Source of the DNA: Clostridium sp. CAG:433
Lineage (GTDB): Bacteria > Bacillota_I > Bacilli_A > RF39 > UBA660
Length of the DNA: 64,000 nt
Direction of reading: 5' to 3'
NCBI GenBank assembly: GCA_000433675.1
Contig: FR893564.1
Location: 52,660 to 116,659, forward strand
A program made the position numbers and the translations under genes. How positions within the stretch are numbered: the stretch's first letter is position 1; the number at the start of each line of letters is the position of its first letter. The notes under the pieces are model-generated. The model was not told the DNA's origin. It made no database searches and saw only the letters and a list, made by a program, of their open reading frames with translations. Shown here in pieces: positions 1-56,926 of this stretch.

Positions 1-201
1 AAGGTTCATGGTGAAATAGTACTTCATTATGATATATATACAAATAAAAATATTATTTTGTTAAAATCAATTTCACCAGAAGAATTATTCTTAGAGGGAC
101 ATGCTACAGAGTTAAATGCATATAAAGGCGTTATGATTAGTAAAGAAAATGCTGATAAAGATATGTTTAAAATTAATTTATTAGATTTATTAAATAAATA
201 G
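1..201 (+). CDS. 3' end of hypothetical protein (partial; start lies upstream of window)
   Basis: Open frame from window edge to TAG at 199-201 (…ELFLEGHATELNAYKGVMISKENADKDMFKINLLDLLNK*); no recognisable domain. Confidence 0.35.
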   Translation, partial: KVHGEIVLHYDIYTNKNIILLKSISPEELFLEGHATELNAYKGVMISKENADKDMFKINLLDLLNK

Positions 202-257
202 TCATTAGACTATTTTTTTTGTCTAAAAAAATACTTAAAACAGGTATAAAAATTAAC

Positions 258-288
258 TTGACAAAATGCTTCGGGGGGGGGGTATACT
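258..288 (+). promoter_or_regulatory. sigma-A-type promoter TTGACA-N19-TATACT with G10 homopolymer in spacer
   Basis: TTGACA at 258-263, ten consecutive G at 273-282, TATACT at 283-288, followed by AGGAGG and ATG at 308. Confidence 0.55.
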
Positions 289-307
289 AACGAAAAGGAG
301 GAGTAAA

Positions 308-964
308 ATGGATAGATTTGAAAGAGCATACAAAAATGAGTTATTAGTTAGATACGCCAAAGAATTAATAGAACTAGACAAAAAAAGAGAGGATAATGAA
401 ACAGATTCTATTGGAACTTCCGATTTTGAATTATTACATTTTTGTGTAAATAATATTGTTTTTAAAACTAACGATTTAGAAAGTTTGTTAGATTCATATT
501 TGTTTTGTGCTGGTAATGAAGAATTAGGACAACATGAAAACGTTTATGGTGATGTTAAAGCAGGAATTAGCGGAGTGTCATTTCCAAATAAAGAAATATC
601 TGTTACATATCATTCATTTCAAATGGTTTTATTTAGGCAAATAGATTACGTTTTATCTCAATCATCAGGTGAAATTCAAAGGGATTTTTTTGAAAGAATT
701 CTAAATGATAGAGAAAAAATTATAGCTAGTGATTTACAAGCTGCAAAAAACCAATCAGTTAGATTAAAAGATAAAGAAAATGCAATCAAAAATAGATATC
801 CTAATCTAACTAGAGAAAATGCTAATCTTCAACATTTTTATGATCAGAATTATACTGGTAGAGAAATAATTGTAGCAAGTAAGCAATTAGAATCTATAGA
901 ATATTTAATTTTTCATTTGGGAGAAGATAGAGTTCAAAATCAAAGTAATGTGCAAAAAAGATAG
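308..964 (+). CDS. hypothetical protein (219 aa)
   Basis: ATG at 308 (MDRFERAYKN…) is preceded by AGGAGG at 8 nt; the tool ORF start at 266 reads through the promoter poly-G and is unlikely to be real. Confidence 0.55.
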   Translation: MDRFERAYKNELLVRYAKELIELDKKREDNETDSIGTSDFELLHFCVNNIVFKTNDLESLLDSYLFCAGNEELGQHENVYGDVKAGISGVSFPNKEISVTYHSFQMVLFRQIDYVLSQSSGEIQRDFFERILNDREKIIASDLQAAKNQSVRLKDKENAIKNRYPNLTRENANLQHFYDQNYTGREIIVASKQLESIEYLIFHLGEDRVQNQSNVQKR

Positions 965-1164
965 TACTTAAAAATAATTATAAATATTGATGATATAAAT
1001 ACTATCTAAAATTTCAAGCACTCATATGAATGCTTGATTTTTTTTGTTCCAACATATTAACTAAAAAATAAAAAAACATAAGAAAAATTAAATCATTATT
1101 TTAGTACTTTTTCTTGCTTTTTATAGAATTTTAGTAATATAATTAACTAAAGGAGGTAAGTGTT

Positions 1165-1578
1165 ATGATATGGTTTATTTTGATATTTGCCTTTTTGATA
1201 ATTGAAGCCTTATCATTTAATTTAATTACTATTTGGTTTGCTTTTGGTAGTTTGTGTGCATTTATTAGTACATATTTTACAGATAATTTAATTATTCAAA
1301 TTGTAGTATTTACATTTTTTACTATTATTTCATTAATATTTACAAAACCATTACTTGATAAATTTATAAATAAAAATGTTACAAAAACAAATATTGATAT
1401 GATAATTGGTAAAATAGGTATAGTTACAAAAGAGATAAATGAGTTATCACCAGGTAGGGTAAAAGTTTCTGGTAAAGACTGGATGGCTATATCAAATAGT
1501 CATATAGATGAAGGCAAAAAAGTAAGGGTACTTAAAATTGAAGGTGCTAAAATAATTGTTAGAGAAGAGGAGAGGTAA
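1165..1578 (+). CDS. NfeD-like membrane protein (short form, C-terminal OB-fold)
   Basis: N-terminal TM helices plus C-terminal beta-rich soluble domain; immediately upstream of an SPFH gene (canonical NfeD-stomatin operon); RBS AAGGAGG. Confidence 0.7.
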   Translation: MIWFILIFAFLIIEALSFNLITIWFAFGSLCAFISTYFTDNLIIQIVVFTFFTIISLIFTKPLLDKFINKNVTKTNIDMIIGKIGIVTKEINELSPGRVKVSGKDWMAISNSHIDEGKKVRVLKIEGAKIIVREEER

Positions 1579-4464: not shown

Positions 4465-5355
4465 ATGGAAAAAGAAATAAATAATTTTATAGAATATTTA
4501 AAATATCAAAGAAATTATTCGGATTTTACATGTAATAATTATAAAAAAGATTTAAATGAGTATAATTCGTTTATTTTAAATAATAAAATAAATTATAAAA
4601 ATATGGATTATAATGACGCAAAAGAATATGTAATATATTTAAATAAAAAAAATGATGCAAAATCTACTATATCAAGAAAATTAAGTTCACTTAGAACATT
4701 TTATAAATATTTAGTATTAAATAATAAAGTAAAGTCAAATCCATTTTTACTTGTATCAAGCCCTAAAAAAGAAAAAAGAATACCAAAATTTATAAATTAT
4801 AATAATATGGAAGAAATATTAAATGTTCCTAATATAAAAACAAAAGAAGGACAAAGAGAAAGAGTAATTTTAGAAGTATTATATGCATCAGGAGTCAGAG
4901 TATCAGAACTAGTTAATATAAAATTAAAAGATATTGATTTTAGTAATAAAAATATATTAATATTTGGTAAAGGTAGTAAAGAAAGATTAGTATCATTTGG
5001 GGATTATGCTCTTGAATATATTAATTTATATTTAAAAGAAGGAAGAAACTTATTACTTGATGGTGTTAAAAGTGATTATTTAATTGTTGGTAAAAAAAGT
5101 GAAAAACTTACAACAAGAAGAGTAGAACAGATAATAGATGACATTATAAAAAGAACAAGTATTAAACTAAATATTACTCCTCATATGTTTAGACATACAT
5201 TCGCAACACATTTACTAGATAATGGTTGCGATTTACTTGTTGTTCAAGAGTTACTTGGTCATGCATCATTATCATCAACAGAAATATATACACATGTAAG
5301 TAATGAACATTTAAGAGAAGTATATTTAAAGTGTCATCCTAGAAATAAAAGATAA
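4465..5355 (+). CDS. tyrosine site-specific recombinase, XerC/XerD family
   Basis: C-terminal catalytic region HMFRHTFATHLLDNGCDLLVVQELLGHASLSSTEIYTHV (R..H-x-x-R..H..Y) closely matching Xer recombinases; about 296 aa. Confidence 0.8.
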   Translation: MEKEINNFIEYLKYQRNYSDFTCNNYKKDLNEYNSFILNNKINYKNMDYNDAKEYVIYLNKKNDAKSTISRKLSSLRTFYKYLVLNNKVKSNPFLLVSSPKKEKRIPKFINYNNMEEILNVPNIKTKEGQRERVILEVLYASGVRVSELVNIKLKDIDFSNKNILIFGKGSKERLVSFGDYALEYINLYLKEGRNLLLDGVKSDYLIVGKKSEKLTTRRVEQIIDDIIKRTSIKLNITPHMFRHTFATHLLDNGCDLLVVQELLGHASLSSTEIYTHVSNEHLREVYLKCHPRNKR

Positions 5356-25636: not shown

Positions 25637-25802
25637 TTTTTTTACCTTCTTTCAAACTATTATATAATACCACAAATTTAAAAATAAATGTAGTAAATAA
25701 AATCTAAAAAATATGTAAAATTTTGTTTGCCCAAATTATTTGACAATTCTTATGACTTGTGCTATTATAATGGTCGTTATTTTCGAAGAGGGGGAGTCTT
25801 TT

Positions 25803-28043
25803 ATGGAAGAAACTAGAAAATCAACTGTAATTAGGGATTTAATAATAAAAATATTTCTAATACTTTTATTTGTATTTTTAATAACAATATTATTTCCTAT
25901 GCCTAACTTAACTGCATTTTATGATTCTGTATTTAATAATAACGTACAAAGCATGAAAGATGCTGCAGATAGTTATTTTACTAAAGATAGAATGCCTGAA
26001 AAAGTAGGAGATTCAGTAAAATTAACACTTCAAGATATGCTTGATAAAAAATTAATTTTACCATTCTTAGATAAAGATGGTAACGAATGTGATACTAAAA
26101 AATCATATGTTAAAGTAACAAAAGAAGAAAAAGAATACAAGCTAGAGGTTCATTTATCATGTCCTAATAAGGAAGATTATATTATTGAACCAATTGGATG
26201 TTATAATTTTTGTCCAGAACAAACAGTAAATTGTAATTGTTCATGTAGTGGTGCACAAGAAGAACAACCAACAACATCAGATGATGGTAAGGTTACTGTA
26301 AATAAAACAAATCCAACACCAAGTAATAATAATGATGGTGGTAAATACAAATTACAATATTTATATACAAGAACATTAACTGATATAAATTGGAATACTG
26401 GTAATTATCAATCAAATAAAGAAGACGAAAATGATAATGTAAGATTAGTAGATACTAAAACACAATATACAGGTCAAAAGAAAGTATCTGCTGGATCAAC
26501 ACAATATAAACATGTAAAATATGCTTATAAAGATAATTGGTCAGTAGTAACAGATTGGACTGATGAAGTTAAACCTATAACAGATAAGTTCAAATTATAT
26601 GCAACAAGAACATTATATACAGGTTATAAAAAAGTAACTAAAGATGTAATGAATTATAAACATATAAAATATGGTTATAGAGATAACTGGGTAATTGATA
26701 CAGGTTGGACTTATGATGTGATCCCAGAAACAACAAAAATTAAATTATATGCAACAAGAACATTATATACAGGTTATAAACCATATGTTGAAGAAACAAC
26801 GCAATATAAACATGTTAAATATGCAAATAAAGATACATGGACTGAAACAGGATGGTCAACAACTAAAAGAACTGAAAATAGTAATACTAAGTTAGTTGAT
26901 ACTAGATATACAGTTAGAAAAACAGTTAAAACAACTAAAGGTTCTTGGTCAGATTGGATAAAAGAAGGTGTTTGGAGAGATTCAAAACCTGCTGATTCAA
27001 GTACTAAACAATGGTATGGACCATATAATGAAAAAACTATAAGTACTTGGAAAACACTATATGATTCATGGAGTACAACAGAATTACAACAACCTATTTC
27101 AGGTAATAGAAGATATGAACTTTTAACTCAACATCCAGATGAATGTACAGATGCATGTAATGGTAATTCTACTGTAATGAGATATTATTACAGAGTATAT
27201 GAACTTCAAGAATCTAAACAATATATGTATTACTATAGAACATATTCTGAAACATCATCTACATCAACAGATGAAAAGGTTGTATCAAATCCAAAATCAT
27301 ATACAGATAATGGATATACAATTGTAAAAACAGAATATAAGTATAAAATAAAATCAAGTGATAATGAGATTGTTGATACAAAGTGGACAAATTCGAAAAC
27401 ATCACCATCAGGTTATGTATATGCTAATGAAAAGAAAGTAACTAAAACAACTAAATATAAAGCATTAGATAAATGGGTTACAAGTAAAGAAAAATTAGGT
27501 GAATATACATCTTACGTAAAAACTAAAAAACAATATAAATATAAAAGAAATAACCCAGAGAAATATGTTATTGGTACAATATGGACTACATCAAAAACAT
27601 CACCATCAGGTTATGAATATACTGGTGAATATACAAAGACAACAAAAACAACTTATGAACCATATAATAAATGGGTTACTAATAAAGACAAATTAGGTGA
27701 ATATACATACTATATAACAACAAAAACTCAATATAAATATAAACAAAATAATCCAGAAAAATATATTGAATCAACAATATGGACAGATTCAATAAATCCA
27801 CCTGCTGGATATACATATACTGGAGAATATAAAACAAATAGTTCAACATCATATGTAGATTTAGGTTACTGGGTTGATGATATAAAAGACTTAGGTGAAT
27901 ATACACATAATGTTAAAACTAGAAAATTATATAGATATAAATATAGAACAGTAATAACAAAAACTGAAAGCAGATGGTTTGACAAAAATCCTGGTGGAGA
28001 CTGGGTATATGCAAATCAAACAAGAAAAGTGAGAGTAAACTAA
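25803..28043 (+). CDS. large membrane-anchored repetitive protein (Cys-rich segment plus two families of ~50-aa Y/K/T-rich repeats)
   Basis: ATG 25803 after GGGGGAG; N-terminal TM; CYNFCPEQTVNCNCSCSG; repeats YKHVKYAYKDNW…KLYATRTLYTGYK (exact 39-bp DNA repeats at 26592 and 26742) and KWTNSKTSPSGY…LGEYT…KTQYKYK. Confidence 0.55.
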   Translation: MEETRKSTVIRDLIIKIFLILLFVFLITILFPMPNLTAFYDSVFNNNVQSMKDAADSYFTKDRMPEKVGDSVKLTLQDMLDKKLILPFLDKDGNECDTKKSYVKVTKEEKEYKLEVHLSCPNKEDYIIEPIGCYNFCPEQTVNCNCSCSGAQEEQPTTSDDGKVTVNKTNPTPSNNNDGGKYKLQYLYTRTLTDINWNTGNYQSNKEDENDNVRLVDTKTQYTGQKKVSAGSTQYKHVKYAYKDNWSVVTDWTDEVKPITDKFKLYATRTLYTGYKKVTKDVMNYKHIKYGYRDNWVIDTGWTYDVIPETTKIKLYATRTLYTGYKPYVEETTQYKHVKYANKDTWTETGWSTTKRTENSNTKLVDTRYTVRKTVKTTKGSWSDWIKEGVWRDSKPADSSTKQWYGPYNEKTISTWKTLYDSWSTTELQQPISGNRRYELLTQHPDECTDACNGNSTVMRYYYRVYELQESKQYMYYYRTYSETSSTSTDEKVVSNPKSYTDNGYTIVKTEYKYKIKSSDNEIVDTKWTNSKTSPSGYVYANEKKVTKTTKYKALDKWVTSKEKLGEYTSYVKTKKQYKYKRNNPEKYVIGTIWTTSKTSPSGYEYTGEYTKTTKTTYEPYNKWVTNKDKLGEYTYYITTKTQYKYKQNNPEKYIESTIWTDSINPPAGYTYTGEYKTNSSTSYVDLGYWVDDIKDLGEYTHNVKTRKLYRYKYRTVITKTESRWFDKNPGGDWVYANQTRKVRVN

Positions 28044-54190: not shown

Positions 54191-56926
54191 ATGAACATAT
54201 TAGATTTAATCGATTATTTAAAAAAAATGGGTTATAAATTTCACAATTTAGATACAAATGAACCTTTTTTAAAAATAAATGGAACAAAAATTATTTTTAA
54301 TATAGTTAATAAAAAATATAAAGTAGAGGGTATTTCTGTAGGACATGAAAGAATCCTAGATTTAACAAGGCCTGAAAATTACAGCGTTGTAATGTTTTTG
54401 ATAAAACTATTAAAAAAAGGTTATTCGAAAAATGTAATTTCATTAGAAAAAAGGTGGCAATTAGGACATAATGATAGTGGATCACTTGATGTTATGTTAA
54501 AAAATCCTATTAATAATGATATTTACATGATAGAAATAAAATCTCAATCAGAAATAAATAAATACGTAAATTTAAATAACGAAAAAAAATTAAAACAAGT
54601 TTTTTCTTATGCAATTCAGGAAAAAACAACTAAAATAATATCTTTTTATTCTTATGATTTTTCTGAAAATAAGGATATGTTTTACAATGTATATACAGAA
54701 GATATATTAAAAGAATCCCAAAATGTAGATGACTTTTTTGAAAGATGGAATAAAGTATTTGATAAAAGCGATTATATTTCTAATAACAAAATATTTAATT
54801 CAAGACAATCAGTTAAAAAATATAGTCAATTAGAGAATATTACAAATAATGATACAAAAACCTTATTTAATCAATTTGCGACAATATTAAGATTACATTC
54901 TATTTCTGATAAGCCCAATGCTTTTATTAAGATGATTAATTTGTTTTTGGCTAAAATAAATGATGAAATTACATCTGATAAAAAATTTGAAGTAAAGGAT
55001 AATGCAGGAAATATACATACTTTAAATGGTATGAAGTTCCAATATATTAGGGGTATAGATACTCCAGTATCTTTTATGAAAAGACTTAATGAGTTATATA
55101 AAGAAGGAATGAAAGAATACTTAAATAAAGATGTAATTGATTATAATGATGAAGAAATCGATGATTTATTACCAGACAATGTAGAAAATAGAAAACTTAT
55201 TGTAGAAACATTTGATAATCTAAGACTTAAGAAAAATAATAATTTTACATTTATTGATGTATTTGATGATGAAACATTCTATCTTAATTTTGAGGTTGTA
55301 AAAAGTGTTGTTGAACTTCTTGAAAATTATAGATTTAAGTATGATACGAAACATCAATTTTTAGGAGACTTTTTTGAAGAATTATTAAATACCAGTTTAA
55401 AACAAGAAGCTGGTCAGTTCTTTACACCTTATCCAATTGTTGATTTTATGGTTGATTCATTACCATATGAAAAACTTATTAAGAAGAATGTAGATTTAGG
55501 AAGAATTAATTTTATCCCTTCTGTTATCGATTATGCGTGTGGAGCAGGACACTTTTTAATAAGCAGTATGGCAAAAACACAAGAAATAATTAAAAAAATG
55601 AAAAATGAAAATTATAATTTTAACGAATTACAAACTAAAAAAATAAATGCATATATTGATGATCCATATTCATGGGTAAACAAAAGAAATTGTGTTGGAA
55701 TTGAAAAGGATTACAGACTTGCCAAAACAACTAAAATAGCAACGTTTCTTAATGGAGATGGTAATGCTGAAATAATTAGTGGAGACGGAATTAACAAATT
55801 TAATTCTAAGGATTATGAAAATACAATTTTAAATTCAAGTAAAAATAAAATTGAAAAGTTTGATTTTGTTATATCAAATCCACCATATTCAATAGATGGA
55901 TTTATGAGAAATTTTTCAAAGAATGGAATTACTCCAGAATCAGGCGATTTTTCATTATTAAAAAAATTAAATTATACAGATTCTGCAATAGAAACATTTT
56001 TTGTTGAAAGAACAGAACAACTTTTAGTTAATAATGGATATTGTGCAATTGTATTGCCACAATCTATTCTATCAAATTCAAAATATGAAAATATGAGAAG
56101 ATTCATGTTTAAAAATTTTGAAATAAAAGCTTTAGTTATGACATCAGATATTACTTTTTCAGGAACAACAACATCACCAGTTATATTATTTTTAAAGAAG
56201 ACAAAAGTACCAAATAAGCATTACAAAACATTAGTAGTAGGATCACCAAAATACATGAAACCAACTGGAAGTAAAATGAAAGATCAGGAAATTAAATTTC
56301 TTGGTTATGAATTTAGTACAAATAGGGCAAAGTCAGGAATTACTATAAAAGATAATTCAATATTATCAAAAATATCACCTATAATAAATAATTTTATTTC
56401 TAACGATGAAATAAATATACCTAAAAATTTATCTAATTTAGTGTATAGTAAATATTTTGATGATATATTATTAAATTCTTCTAAAGAATATTGCGGAGAT
56501 ATATATCCAAAATATAATCTTAATGAGGGTAAACCATTATCTAATTATTGCAAGATTAATTGTAGAACAACAGAGGATTTCGATAAAATGCCATCTGATT
56601 ATCTTGAAATAGGGGGCTTATCTACATTACAAACTAGTGAAAAAAAGAAAACAACTAATAGATTCTGCAAAAAAGGTGATATTCTAGTCTCTAGTTTATG
56701 TCCAAAAAGAAATCAAATTAAAATAGCAGATAAAGATTATATGGTTACAACAGCAATACATGTATTATCTGATTTTGAAAGTGAAGAGATAAAAGAAAAA
56801 ATTTATGAAAAAATTAGATCTGATGAAGTTTTAGAACAAATGAATTCTTTACTTGATGGTTTTAAAATCACTTATGCTAAAATTTCAGATGCAAATTTAA
56901 TTAATAATATATTAATTAATATATAA
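54191..56926 (+). CDS. Type IIG restriction-modification enzyme (fused PD-(D/E)xK nuclease plus gamma-class N6-adenine methyltransferase plus target-recognition domain)
   Basis: N-terminal D…EIK (SLDVMLKN…IYMIEIKSQ), GQFFTPYPIVDFMV, VIDYACGAGHFLIS (motif I), FVISNPPYS (motif IV), about 340-aa C-terminal region; 911 aa. Confidence 0.7.
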   Translation: MNILDLIDYLKKMGYKFHNLDTNEPFLKINGTKIIFNIVNKKYKVEGISVGHERILDLTRPENYSVVMFLIKLLKKGYSKNVISLEKRWQLGHNDSGSLDVMLKNPINNDIYMIEIKSQSEINKYVNLNNEKKLKQVFSYAIQEKTTKIISFYSYDFSENKDMFYNVYTEDILKESQNVDDFFERWNKVFDKSDYISNNKIFNSRQSVKKYSQLENITNNDTKTLFNQFATILRLHSISDKPNAFIKMINLFLAKINDEITSDKKFEVKDNAGNIHTLNGMKFQYIRGIDTPVSFMKRLNELYKEGMKEYLNKDVIDYNDEEIDDLLPDNVENRKLIVETFDNLRLKKNNNFTFIDVFDDETFYLNFEVVKSVVELLENYRFKYDTKHQFLGDFFEELLNTSLKQEAGQFFTPYPIVDFMVDSLPYEKLIKKNVDLGRINFIPSVIDYACGAGHFLISSMAKTQEIIKKMKNENYNFNELQTKKINAYIDDPYSWVNKRNCVGIEKDYRLAKTTKIATFLNGDGNAEIISGDGINKFNSKDYENTILNSSKNKIEKFDFVISNPPYSIDGFMRNFSKNGITPESGDFSLLKKLNYTDSAIETFFVERTEQLLVNNGYCAIVLPQSILSNSKYENMRRFMFKNFEIKALVMTSDITFSGTTTSPVILFLKKTKVPNKHYKTLVVGSPKYMKPTGSKMKDQEIKFLGYEFSTNRAKSGITIKDNSILSKISPIINNFISNDEINIPKNLSNLVYSKYFDDILLNSSKEYCGDIYPKYNLNEGKPLSNYCKINCRTTEDFDKMPSDYLEIGGLSTLQTSEKKKTTNRFCKKGDILVSSLCPKRNQIKIADKDYMVTTAIHVLSDFESEEIKEKIYEKIRSDEVLEQMNSLLDGFKITYAKISDANLINNILINI

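What the first reader, a model, noticed from the sequence alone, without database searches (positions are those of the whole stretch)
258..310. G10 homopolymer inside the spacer of a strong promoter: candidate phase-variation switch
A near-consensus promoter (TTGACA … TATACT) drives the ORF at 308. Its spacer is 19 nt, and 10 of those nt are one uninterrupted G run (273-282). A G10 tract is very unlikely by chance in DNA this AT-rich. Slipped-strand mispairing that changes G10 to G8 or G9 would bring the spacer to the optimal 17-18 nt. This is the classic architecture of transcriptional phase variation, as in fim, opc and hifA-type promoters. The tool ORF start at 266 reads through the tract; the real start is the RBS-preceded ATG at 308. 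An incomplete upstream ORF ends at 201 and is of unknown function.
Basis: partly seen in the sequence, partly recalled or inferred. Interest (0 to 1): 0.6.

Follow-up and report, generated by a model that had tools for sequence, protein, structure and literature searches.

The report
Variable G-run in a gene's promoter
An uncultured human-gut bacterium carries an uninterrupted run of G's between the two recognition boxes of a promoter, and the run's length differs (9 to at least 14) among otherwise near-identical strains, which fits a known kind of random on/off gene switch here attached to a small protein of unknown function.

Summary
TTGACA (258-263), a 19-nt spacer ending in G10 (273-282), TATACT (283-288), a Shine-Dalgarno site and ATG 308 are all present. 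G10 is the only G or C run longer than 6 in 64 kb of 24.6% GC DNA.

The gene product is identical to CDD29777.1 of "Clostridium sp. CAG:433", a human-gut metagenome species. In 16 further assemblies of the same locus the tract is G9 (4), G10 (8), G11 (1), G12 (1) or at least G14 (1). Two contigs break inside it. Length varies within haplotypes whose 657-nt gene is identical. L001 and L002 differ by that one base over about 1.36 kb. Nearby A/T runs mostly follow haplotype.

In a diverged lineage the intergenic DNA is replaced, but the -35 box, G tract, -10 box and ribosome-binding site are kept. No inverted repeats flank the promoter.

The best reading is slipped-strand transcriptional phase variation through spacer length, as in porA and tp0126. 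That makes it a new member of a known kind. Switching rate, within-population heterogeneity and the effect on expression are untested.

The controlled gene encodes a soluble, all-helical orphan protein with no family or fold match. Within the species it shows an excess of amino-acid changes and some frameshifted alleles.

The parts
199..222 (+). Weak hairpin plus U8 after the upstream 139-aa gene (stop at 201). It is a likely terminator that insulates the cassette from polA-side transcription.
   Evidence: RNA fold of 196-250: -8.8 kcal/mol, z = -2.4, 8-bp stem followed by T8.
258..263 (+). -35 hexamer TTGACA. The 12-nt block TTGACAAAATGC is conserved.
   Evidence: The block is identical in both diverged lineages, while the DNA directly upstream of it is unrelated.
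264..282 (+). Promoter spacer, 19 nt in this window. Related assemblies have 18 to 21 nt, and about 23 or more in L006 if its missing 9-nt stretch upstream of the tract matches L005.
273..282 (+). Hypervariable uninterrupted poly-G tract, G10 here. The other 15 readable assemblies give G9 x4, G10 x8, G11 x1, G12 x1 and at least G14 x1.
283..288 (+). -10 hexamer TATACT (5 of 6 matches to TATAAT).
   Evidence: Invariant in all 17 sequences that reach it.
295..303 (+). Shine-Dalgarno site AAGGAGGAG, about 5 nt before the ATG.
   Evidence: AGGAGGAGTAAAATG is kept in the window lineage, L005 and L006; L107 reads AGGAGAAGTAAAATG (one substitution). The leader between -10 and SD differs between lineages.
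308..964 (+). CDS of a 218-aa acidic, soluble, all-alpha orphan protein, identical to CDD29777.1 of Clostridium sp. CAG:433.
   Evidence: No match in Pfam, NCBIfam or PHROGs (one sub-threshold PADLOC hit, E=0.0014), and no match in phage or plasmid records.
745..750 (+). A6 run inside the CDS. An A5 allele in one sub-lineage frameshifts the gene to 152 aa.
   Evidence: The allele follows haplotype, so it is an ordinary inactivating mutation and not a switch.
1014..1045 (+). Intrinsic terminator after the gene: hairpin 1014-1037 plus T8.
   Evidence: RNA fold: -11.5 kcal/mol, z = -4.7, 0 of 200 shuffles fold as well. The palindrome was also flagged.

Best explanation
This is a simple-sequence contingency switch. 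A monocistronic cassette (promoter, Shine-Dalgarno site, 218-aa gene, terminator) is transcribed from a sigma-70/sigma-A-type promoter, and the distance between its -35 and -10 hexamers is set by an uninterrupted poly-G tract. Slipped-strand mispairing during replication adds or removes G's, so the spacer moves in 1-nt steps: G8 gives 17 nt, G9 gives 18, G10 gives 19, G12 gives 21.

RNA polymerase holoenzyme needs about 17 +/- 1 nt between the hexamers. G8-G9 cells should therefore transcribe the gene, G10 cells should do so only weakly, and cells with G11 or more hardly at all. A population would then contain heritable but reversible ON, low and OFF subclones.

Shown here: the anatomy, the conservation of the promoter elements, and tract lengths that differ among near-identical strains much more than substitutions or neighbouring homopolymers do. 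Inferred: the slippage mechanism, the dependence of expression on length, and reversibility. What the orphan protein does is unknown. Its excess of amino-acid changes within the species and its recurrent inactivation suggest a dispensable gene that is costly or involved in conflict.
For: 1. Anatomy. A perfect -35 box, a 5/6 -10 box and G10 filling the 3' half of the spacer. A strong Shine-Dalgarno site and ATG 308 coincide with the N-termini of all homologues. Hairpin-plus-U-tract terminators lie on both sides.

2. The tract is not chance. It is the only G/C run longer than 6 in 64 kb at 24.6% GC, with 3e-4 expected. Such runs are essentially absent from 616 kb of relatives.

3. Length polymorphism. 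Of 17 independent sequences (16 other assemblies plus the window), 16 have a readable tract: G9 x4 (L002, L108, L112, L107), G10 x9 (window, L001, L003, L024, L026, L111, L113, L115, L116), G11 (L114), G12 (L005) and at least G14 (L006). The 17th, L004, starts inside the tract.

4. Homoplasy. Within the haplotype whose 657-nt gene is identical to the window's, the tract is 9, 10 or 11. L001 and L002 are identical over about 1364 nt except G10 versus G9. L005 and L006 have identical genes but G12 versus at least G14. The A7/A8, T8/T7 and coding A6/A5 runs follow haplotype. One T8-to-T7 change in the terminator tail of L112 is the only other within-haplotype indel seen.

5. Phylogenetic footprint. 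In the L005/L107 lineage the DNA upstream of the -35 box, 3 nt next to the tract, and the leader are all different. TTGACAAAATGC, G(n), TATACT and the Shine-Dalgarno-ATG region (one base changed in L107) are kept.

6. The tract is never interrupted in any copy, despite a strongly AT-rich genome.

7. Two contigs (L004, L006) begin inside the tract, as expected if assembly graphs break at a length-heterogeneous site.

8. No inverted repeats bracket the promoter, so a recombinase-driven switch is not needed to explain the variation.

9. Precedent. The poly-G tracts between -35 and -10 in T. pallidum tp0126 and N. meningitidis porA work this way, with the optimum at a 17-nt spacer (PMC7864442).
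Against: - No assembly shows G8, the predicted optimum. The modal state is G10 (19 nt), so most populations would be low or OFF, and the ON state is only inferred.
- Differences of +/-1 in a G9-G11 run can be consensus errors in short-read assemblies, some of which have low coverage. Only the 9 versus 12 versus at least 14 differences are beyond that doubt.
- There is no read-level data, so within-population heterogeneity is untested.
- The transcription start site is not mapped.
- The product is a cytoplasmic orphan, not a surface structure or restriction-modification enzyme, which are the usual targets of phase variation (PMC11868660).
- Distant homologues have ordinary promoters without any repeat.
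- An excess of nonsynonymous changes and frameshift alleles are also what a decaying gene would show.
Confidence: 0.72

Rival explanations
1. The tract is hypermutable but there is no adaptive switch. The gene is a decaying accessory gene, and the G tract drifts in length because nothing selects for expression. The promoter is effectively dead at G10 or longer.
For: No G8 allele was seen, the modal spacer is 19 nt, and expansions to 12 and at least 14 occur. Within-species changes are 11 nonsynonymous to 1 synonymous, against 2 to 21 in the neighbouring genes (Fisher p = 2e-6). An A5 frameshift allele occurs on at least 13 contigs. The family is tiny, with 10 representatives among 1.84 billion proteins.
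Against: The -35 box, -10 box and tract survive where the surrounding intergenic DNA was replaced, and the ribosome-binding site survives there with at most one base changed. The tract is uninterrupted in every copy despite AT-biased composition. The intact 218-aa protein with exactly this sequence is on 132 contigs, and a second intact variant is on 68, against about 13 contigs with the truncated form. G9 (an 18-nt spacer, within the working range) is present in 4 of 16 readable tracts. A nonsynonymous-to-synonymous ratio well above 1 fits diversifying selection better than neutrality.
Confidence: 0.15
2. The length differences are sequencing or assembly artefacts at a difficult homopolymer, and the true tract is one fixed length.
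For: Several contigs have low coverage, for example cov 3.0 and 1.0 in the record names. G runs of 9 or more are error-prone on short-read platforms. Most differences are +/-1. Two contigs end in the tract.
Against: The tract is present with conserved flanks in 17 independent sequences from several assemblers (MEGAHIT k119/k141, SPAdes, Logan). Lengths of 12 and at least 14 cannot be +/-1 errors of 9-10. Long contigs of 70-110 kb carry G9, G10 and G11. Other homopolymers of 7-8 nt in the same contigs are stable within haplotypes, apart from one T8-to-T7 change in L112.
Confidence: 0.06
3. The tract acts through something other than hexamer spacing. It could be a binding site or a structural element, such as rigid A-like G.C DNA, for a regulator. 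Or it could be a translated Gly-rich N-terminal extension from the ATG at 266, switched by frameshifting.
For: In this window the ATG at 266 is in frame with the main ORF through the tract. In T. pallidum tpr and N. meningitidis opc promoters, homopolymer effects involve regulators and not only spacing (PMC7864442).
Against: There is no Shine-Dalgarno site before 266. The ATG at 266 lies inside the promoter and therefore upstream of the expected transcription start. In the L005 lineage that frame hits a stop after 9 codons. Homologues align from residue 1 of the ATG-308 product. The tract lies exactly between conserved consensus hexamers.
Confidence: 0.07

Closest known systems
Treponema pallidum tp0126 (OmpW homologue) promoter poly-G
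   Same: An uninterrupted poly-G tract lies between the -35 and -10 hexamers. Length varies within and among strains, and transcription is best when the spacer is 17 nt (PMC7864442). The original annotation also ran the ORF wrongly through the tract, as the mechanical ORF at 266 does here.
   Different: It occurs in a spirochaete pathogen and controls an outer-membrane protein. Length dependence was shown there with reporters and fragment-length analysis. Here the host is an uncultured gut Bacillota MAG species, the product is a cytoplasmic orphan, and nothing has been tested experimentally.
Neisseria meningitidis porA promoter poly-G
   Same: A poly-G tract between -10 and -35 gives graded expression (high, medium, none) as single G's are gained or lost and the spacing leaves 17 nt (as summarised in PMC7864442).
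   Different: It belongs to a Gram-negative pathogen with a large multi-locus set of phase-variable genes, and the target is a surface porin. Here only one tract was found in 64 kb, and G/C tracts are essentially absent from relatives.
Mycoplasma hyorhinis vlp promoters (poly-A in the spacer) and Haemophilus influenzae hifA/hifB (TA repeats in the spacer)
   Same: The principle is the same: a simple repeat inside the -35/-10 spacer is changed by slippage and sets the promoter ON or OFF. This rests on my own knowledge of the literature and was not re-read here. The vlp case is also in a low-GC, Mollicutes-related lineage.
   Different: The repeat units differ (A or TA, against G). The targets are surface lipoproteins or fimbriae, and they occur as multi-gene families or divergent promoter pairs. 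Here there is a single monocistronic gene.
Invertible promoters (invertons) of gut bacteria, such as Bacteroides and C. difficile
   Same: They produce the same outcome, heritable ON/OFF promoter states, and they are the form of phase variation so far catalogued in gut metagenomes (PMC11868660).
   Different: They need flanking inverted repeats and a recombinase. No such repeats flank 258-288. The XerC/D-like recombinase at 4465-5355 is 4 kb away with no linked repeats.

Membership tests
SSR-mediated transcriptional phase variation through promoter spacer length (porA / tp0126 / vlp / hif type) | An uninterrupted simple repeat long enough to slip (about 8 or more for G/C homopolymers) | tested here: met
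   G10 at 273-282, and G9 to at least G14 in relatives, never interrupted.
SSR-mediated transcriptional phase variation through promoter spacer length (porA / tp0126 / vlp / hif type) | The repeat lies between the -35 and -10 elements of the promoter that drives the gene | tested here: met
   TTGACA-N19-TATACT with the tract in the spacer. Both hexamers are conserved where the flanking DNA is replaced. This holds at the motif and conservation level only, because the transcription start site is not mapped.
SSR-mediated transcriptional phase variation through promoter spacer length (porA / tp0126 / vlp / hif type) | Repeat length is polymorphic among closely related strains, independently of the surrounding haplotype | tested here: met
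   Five length classes in 16 readable tracts. Lengths 9, 10 and 11 occur within a zero-SNP gene haplotype. L001 and L002 differ only at the tract.
SSR-mediated transcriptional phase variation through promoter spacer length (porA / tp0126 / vlp / hif type) | Length heterogeneity within a clonal population, with high-frequency reversible switching | not testable with these tools
   There is no access to reads or cultures. The only indirect hint is two contigs that break inside the tract.
SSR-mediated transcriptional phase variation through promoter spacer length (porA / tp0126 / vlp / hif type) | Transcription level depends on repeat length | not testable with these tools
   This needs reporter fusions or paired DNA/RNA data. 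It is inferred from the known 17 +/- 1 nt spacer requirement.
Invertible-promoter (inverton) phase variation | Inverted repeats flank the promoter segment | tested here: not met
   No inverted-repeat pair brackets 258-288 in window 1-1300.
Translational (intragenic) SSR phase variation | The repeat lies inside the translated reading frame, so that length changes shift the frame | tested here: not met
   The tract is 26 nt upstream of the real start. The ATG-266 frame has no Shine-Dalgarno site and is closed in the L005 lineage. The coding A6/A5 polymorphism follows haplotype.
FusB/Far1 (EF-G-binding fusidic-acid resistance) proteins, considered for the gene product | Significant sequence similarity that includes the C-terminal Cys4 zinc-binding domain | tested here: not met
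   Only a 50-residue local match at E = 0.017. The Cys residues of the Far1 motif YICRDSIHC align to non-Cys positions. There is no Pfam hit and Far1 does not appear among the fold matches.

The most novel reading that the evidence does not exclude
The tract could be a genuine bet-hedging switch in an uncultured, non-pathogenic gut commensal lineage. It would control a new class of target, neither a surface antigen nor a restriction-modification enzyme: a solitary cytoplasmic all-helical protein under diversifying selection. That target might be a single-gene anti-phage or anti-mobile-element effector, or a costly growth modulator. If so, SSR contingency loci extend beyond pathogens and beyond envelope functions, and they can be mined directly from metagenome assemblies by looking for homoplasic tract lengths.
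Probability: 0.2. Interest if true: 0.65.

Novelty: new member of a known kind. Interest (0 to 1): 0.42.

Why it matters
Phase variation driven by simple repeats has been described almost entirely in cultured pathogens. Whether that restriction is real or a sampling bias is an open question (PMC11868660). In gut commensals the catalogued switches are mostly DNA inversions.

This locus is a clean candidate for repeat-driven switching in an uncultured human-gut species that occurs in hundreds of public samples. Public reads could therefore show tract-length dynamics within and between hosts with no culturing needed.

The locus also attaches a "contingency" label to an orphan protein family with no known fold relatives. 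That gives a reason, and an ON/OFF handle, to study what the protein does. The mechanism itself would not surprise a specialist.

Tried and rejected
**Function of the 218-aa protein**
- Pfam, NCBIfam and PHROGs gave no hit; PADLOC gave one weak hit (PD-Lambda-5_B, E=0.0014, 16 bits) that I do not credit.
- An exhaustive profile search of 1.84 billion representative proteins found only 10 family members.
- A weak Far1/FusB sequence hit (E = 0.017) was rejected because the Cys residues are missing.

**Mobile-element origin**
- There are no homologues in phage records, plasmid records or IMG/VR contigs. One viral scan with alignment A3 failed for lack of a conserved stretch.

**Conserved partner gene**
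- Neighbours of distant homologues share no similarity with each other or with the upstream 139-aa gene.

**Synteny in related species**
- None of the 80 loci from related species has polA, the 139-aa gene or this gene upstream of nfeD. The first genome-contig scan, with the protein alignment, found nothing.

**Convergent repeats upstream of distant homologues**
- None were found.

**Other checks**
- An alternative promoter, TTGTCT-N20-TATAAA at 219-250, has a poor spacer and is not conserved in the L005 lineage.
- Rfam found nothing in the region.
- The taxonomy look-up for the CAG:433 name failed because of name-format limits.
- A literature search for CAG-433 returned only association studies.

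Full report
**1. The observation**

The sequence reads ...aacTTGACAaaatgcttcGGGGGGGGGGTATACTaacgaaAAGGAGGAGtaaaATG.... The features are:

| Feature | Coordinates |
|---|---|
| TTGACA (-35) | 258-263 |
| Spacer (19 nt) | 264-282 |
| G10 | 273-282 |
| TATACT (-10) | 283-288 |
| Shine-Dalgarno site | about 295-303 |
| ATG | 308 |

- The window is 24.6% GC.
- This is the only G or C run longer than 6 in 64 kb. An iid model expects 3.4e-4 G10 runs.
- In 616 kb from 80 loci of related species, only one G/C run of 8 or more exists, and it lies in a 41% GC spirochaete.
- The hexamer pair alone is not statistically remarkable: 3 matches to TTGACA-N15-21-TAYAMT against 1.4 expected.
- The consensus scan missed the site because its spacer limit is 16-18 nt.

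The signal is therefore the tract and where it sits. The product is 218 aa, not 219.

**2. What surrounds it**

- The upstream ORF ending at 201 is the tail of a 139-aa protein with no Pfam match. It follows polA in related contigs.
- That ORF is followed by a weak hairpin plus U8.
- After the 218-aa gene comes a good intrinsic terminator at 1014-1045 (-11.5 kcal/mol, z = -4.7).
- Next is an nfeD-SPFH pair with its own ribosome-binding site.

The unit is therefore a self-contained monocistronic cassette. No inverted repeats bracket the promoter, and Rfam finds nothing there. The rest of the window is ordinary chromosome: PPDK, PriA, PFOR, a Xer-like recombinase and a tRNA.

**3. Whose genome**

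The protein is identical to CDD29777.1, "unknown [Clostridium sp. CAG:433]". That exact sequence is recorded on 132 contigs and indexed in 263 blocks of the assembly collection. One hit is explicitly a human-gut metagenome. The closest species representatives for the neighbouring SPFH protein are uncultured gut "Bacilli/Tenericutes" MAGs at 82% identity or less.

**4. The key test: the same tract in relatives**

I recovered 16 further independent assemblies of the locus.

| Tract | Count | Sequences |
|---|---|---|
| G9 | 4 | L002, L108, L112, L107 |
| G10 | 9 | window, L001, L003, L024, L026, L111, L113, L115, L116 |
| G11 | 1 | L114 |
| G12 | 1 | L005 |
| At least G14 | 1 | L006 (contig starts in the tract) |
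| Not readable | 1 | L004 (contig starts inside the tract) |

The variation does not follow phylogeny:
- Among sequences whose 657-nt gene is identical to the window's, the tract is 9, 10 or 11.
- L001 and L002 are identical over about 1.36 kb except for G10 versus G9.
- L005 and L006 have identical genes but G12 versus at least G14.

The other homopolymers in the region behave differently. Upstream A7/A8, T8/T7 and coding A6/A5 follow haplotype. One T8-to-T7 change in L112 is the only other sporadic indel. The tract therefore mutates far faster than its surroundings.

**5. A phylogenetic footprint of the promoter**

In the L005/L006/L107 lineage (94-95% protein identity) three things differ from the window. 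The intergenic DNA upstream of the -35 box is unrelated and longer. The 3 nt before the tract differ (CCT against TTC). The leader between the -10 box and the Shine-Dalgarno site differs in sequence and length.

Yet TTGACAAAATGC, the G tract and TATACT are retained, and AGGAGGAGTAAAATG is retained apart from one base in L107. That pattern is what selection on a promoter with a built-in repeat would leave. The tract is never interrupted in any copy, even though the genome is strongly AT-rich.

**6. The real start codon**

The mechanical ORF from ATG 266 runs through the tract, but four points count against it:
- It has no Shine-Dalgarno site.
- It lies inside the promoter.
- It is closed by a stop after 9 codons in the L005 lineage.
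- All homologues align from the ATG-308 product's first residue.

**7. Mechanism**

The best-supported reading is slipped-strand mispairing of the G tract, which changes the -35/-10 spacing in 1-nt steps.

| Tract | Spacer | Expected activity |
|---|---|---|
| G8 | 17 nt | Optimal |
| G9 | 18 nt | Within the working range |
| G10 | 19 nt | Poor |
| G11 or more | 20 nt or more | Essentially inactive |

The expected activities rest on established knowledge of sigma-70/sigma-A promoters. The same logic was demonstrated for T. pallidum tp0126 and N. meningitidis porA (PMC7864442).

Observed states would then be mostly low or OFF, with a minority (4 of 16) in a permissive state. G8 was not seen. 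The rate of switching, its reversibility, heterogeneity within a population and the effect on transcription are all inferred and untested.

**8. The gene under control**

- The protein is acidic (pI 5.25) and hydrophilic (GRAVY -0.65). It has no hydrophobic segment (maximum KD19 0.91), so it is cytoplasmic.
- It matches nothing in Pfam, NCBIfam or PHROGs; the only PADLOC hit is weak (PD-Lambda-5_B, E=0.0014, 16 bits).
- An exhaustive HMM search of 1.84 billion representatives returns only 10 members.
- With a 13-sequence alignment, AlphaFold gives a confident seven-helix model (pLDDT 87.7, pTM 0.85).
- A weak Far1/FusB hit was rejected.
- There are no homologues in phage, plasmid or viral-contig collections.
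- Distant homologues sit in different contexts with no shared partner gene. In two lineages they lie beside pfl genes, and one lies near an HTH_XRE gene and an IS200-like fragment.
- None of the distant homologues has an upstream repeat. The tract is therefore a lineage-specific acquisition.

**9. Selection on the gene**

Between the window and L005 haplotypes the gene has 11 nonsynonymous and 1 synonymous differences (dN/dS about 2.6). For comparison, polA, the 139-aa gene, nfeD and SPFH together have 2 nonsynonymous and 21 synonymous (Fisher p = 2e-6).

One sub-lineage carries an A5 frameshift that gives a 152-aa product, seen on at least 13 contigs.

This fits a dispensable contingency gene under diversifying or fluctuating selection. 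It also fits a gene sliding towards loss, which is the main rival (0.15). Against decay stand the conserved promoter elements, the uninterrupted tract, the large majority of intact alleles, and a dN/dS above 1 where neutral decay would give about 1.

**10. Other rivals**

- A pure sequencing artefact (0.06) is contradicted by the 12 and at least 14 alleles, by several assemblers agreeing on the flanks, and by stable neighbouring homopolymers.
- A non-spacing role or a translated Gly-rich extension (0.07) has little support.
- An inverton is excluded by the lack of inverted repeats.

**11. Comparison with known systems and verdict**

In how it works, the locus matches the porA/tp0126 class: a homopolymer in the promoter spacer. 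For membership, three defining features were tested and met: a repeat long enough to slip, placement between conserved hexamers, and homoplasic length polymorphism among strains. Two could not be tested: within-clone reversible switching and length-dependent expression.

It is a new member of a known kind. The less usual aspects are the host, an uncultured gut commensal lineage in which G/C tracts are otherwise nearly absent, and the target, a cytoplasmic orphan protein instead of a surface or restriction-modification function (PMC11868660). No paper on phase variation in this organism was found.

- Interest: 0.42.
- Confidence that this is a real hypermutable promoter tract acting through spacer length: 0.72.

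Noticed in passing
window 308-964, compared with L005, L006, L107 and L115: The 218-aa gene has a strong within-species excess of amino-acid changes: 11 nonsynonymous to 1 synonymous between window and L005, dN/dS about 2.6. The flanking polA, 139-aa, nfeD and SPFH genes together show 2 to 21 (Fisher p = 2e-6).
   Followed up: partly
window 745-750 (A6); L001, L002, L003 and L026 have A5: A one-base deletion in a coding A run truncates the protein to 152 aa in one sub-lineage (P0003, at least 13 contigs). It follows haplotype, so it looks like a fixed inactivating mutation and not a second switch.
   Followed up: yes
L005 2901-2950, also in L107: In the diverged lineage the DNA upstream of the -35 box is replaced. 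It contains an 18-nt direct repeat, TAYTAACACTCCATTKAC, twice and 32 nt apart. The second copy overlaps the -35 hexamer, so it looks like a duplication of the -35 region.
   Followed up: no
L004 position 1; L006 position 1: Two independent metagenome contigs begin inside the G tract. This is consistent with assembly breaks at a length-heterogeneous or hard-to-sequence site.
   Followed up: no
L007-L012 (P0009) and L118-L123 (P0017): Distant homologues of the orphan protein lie next to pyruvate formate-lyase or its activase genes in two different lineages. In the P0017 lineage a 100-aa ORF ends 10 nt before the gene and varies between contigs. In the P0009 lineage an HTH_XRE gene and an IS200-like Y1 transposase fragment are nearby.
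   Followed up: partly
cluster member P0034 (307 aa, ENA contig of 2673 nt): One assembly fuses the first 147 or so residues of the protein, breaking at the coding A run, to unrelated sequence. This is either a real rearrangement at that run or a chimeric assembly.
   Followed up: no
window 26465-27831, inside ORF 25740-28043: Long tandem repeats of 150 and 198 nt (73-81% matches) lie inside a 767-aa ORF with no Pfam hit, directly upstream of priA. It may be a repeat-containing surface protein.
   Followed up: no
window 54191-56926: A 911-aa ORF has an N6 DNA-methylase domain, so it is a possible fused restriction-modification enzyme. It was not examined for repeats or phase variation. No G/C tract longer than 6 is present in the window outside 273-282.
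   Followed up: no
window 225-231 and 1038-1045: Other homopolymer polymorphisms exist among strains. The upstream A7 is A8 in the 3-SNP haplotype, so it follows haplotype. The terminator T8 is T7 in L112 only.
   Followed up: yes
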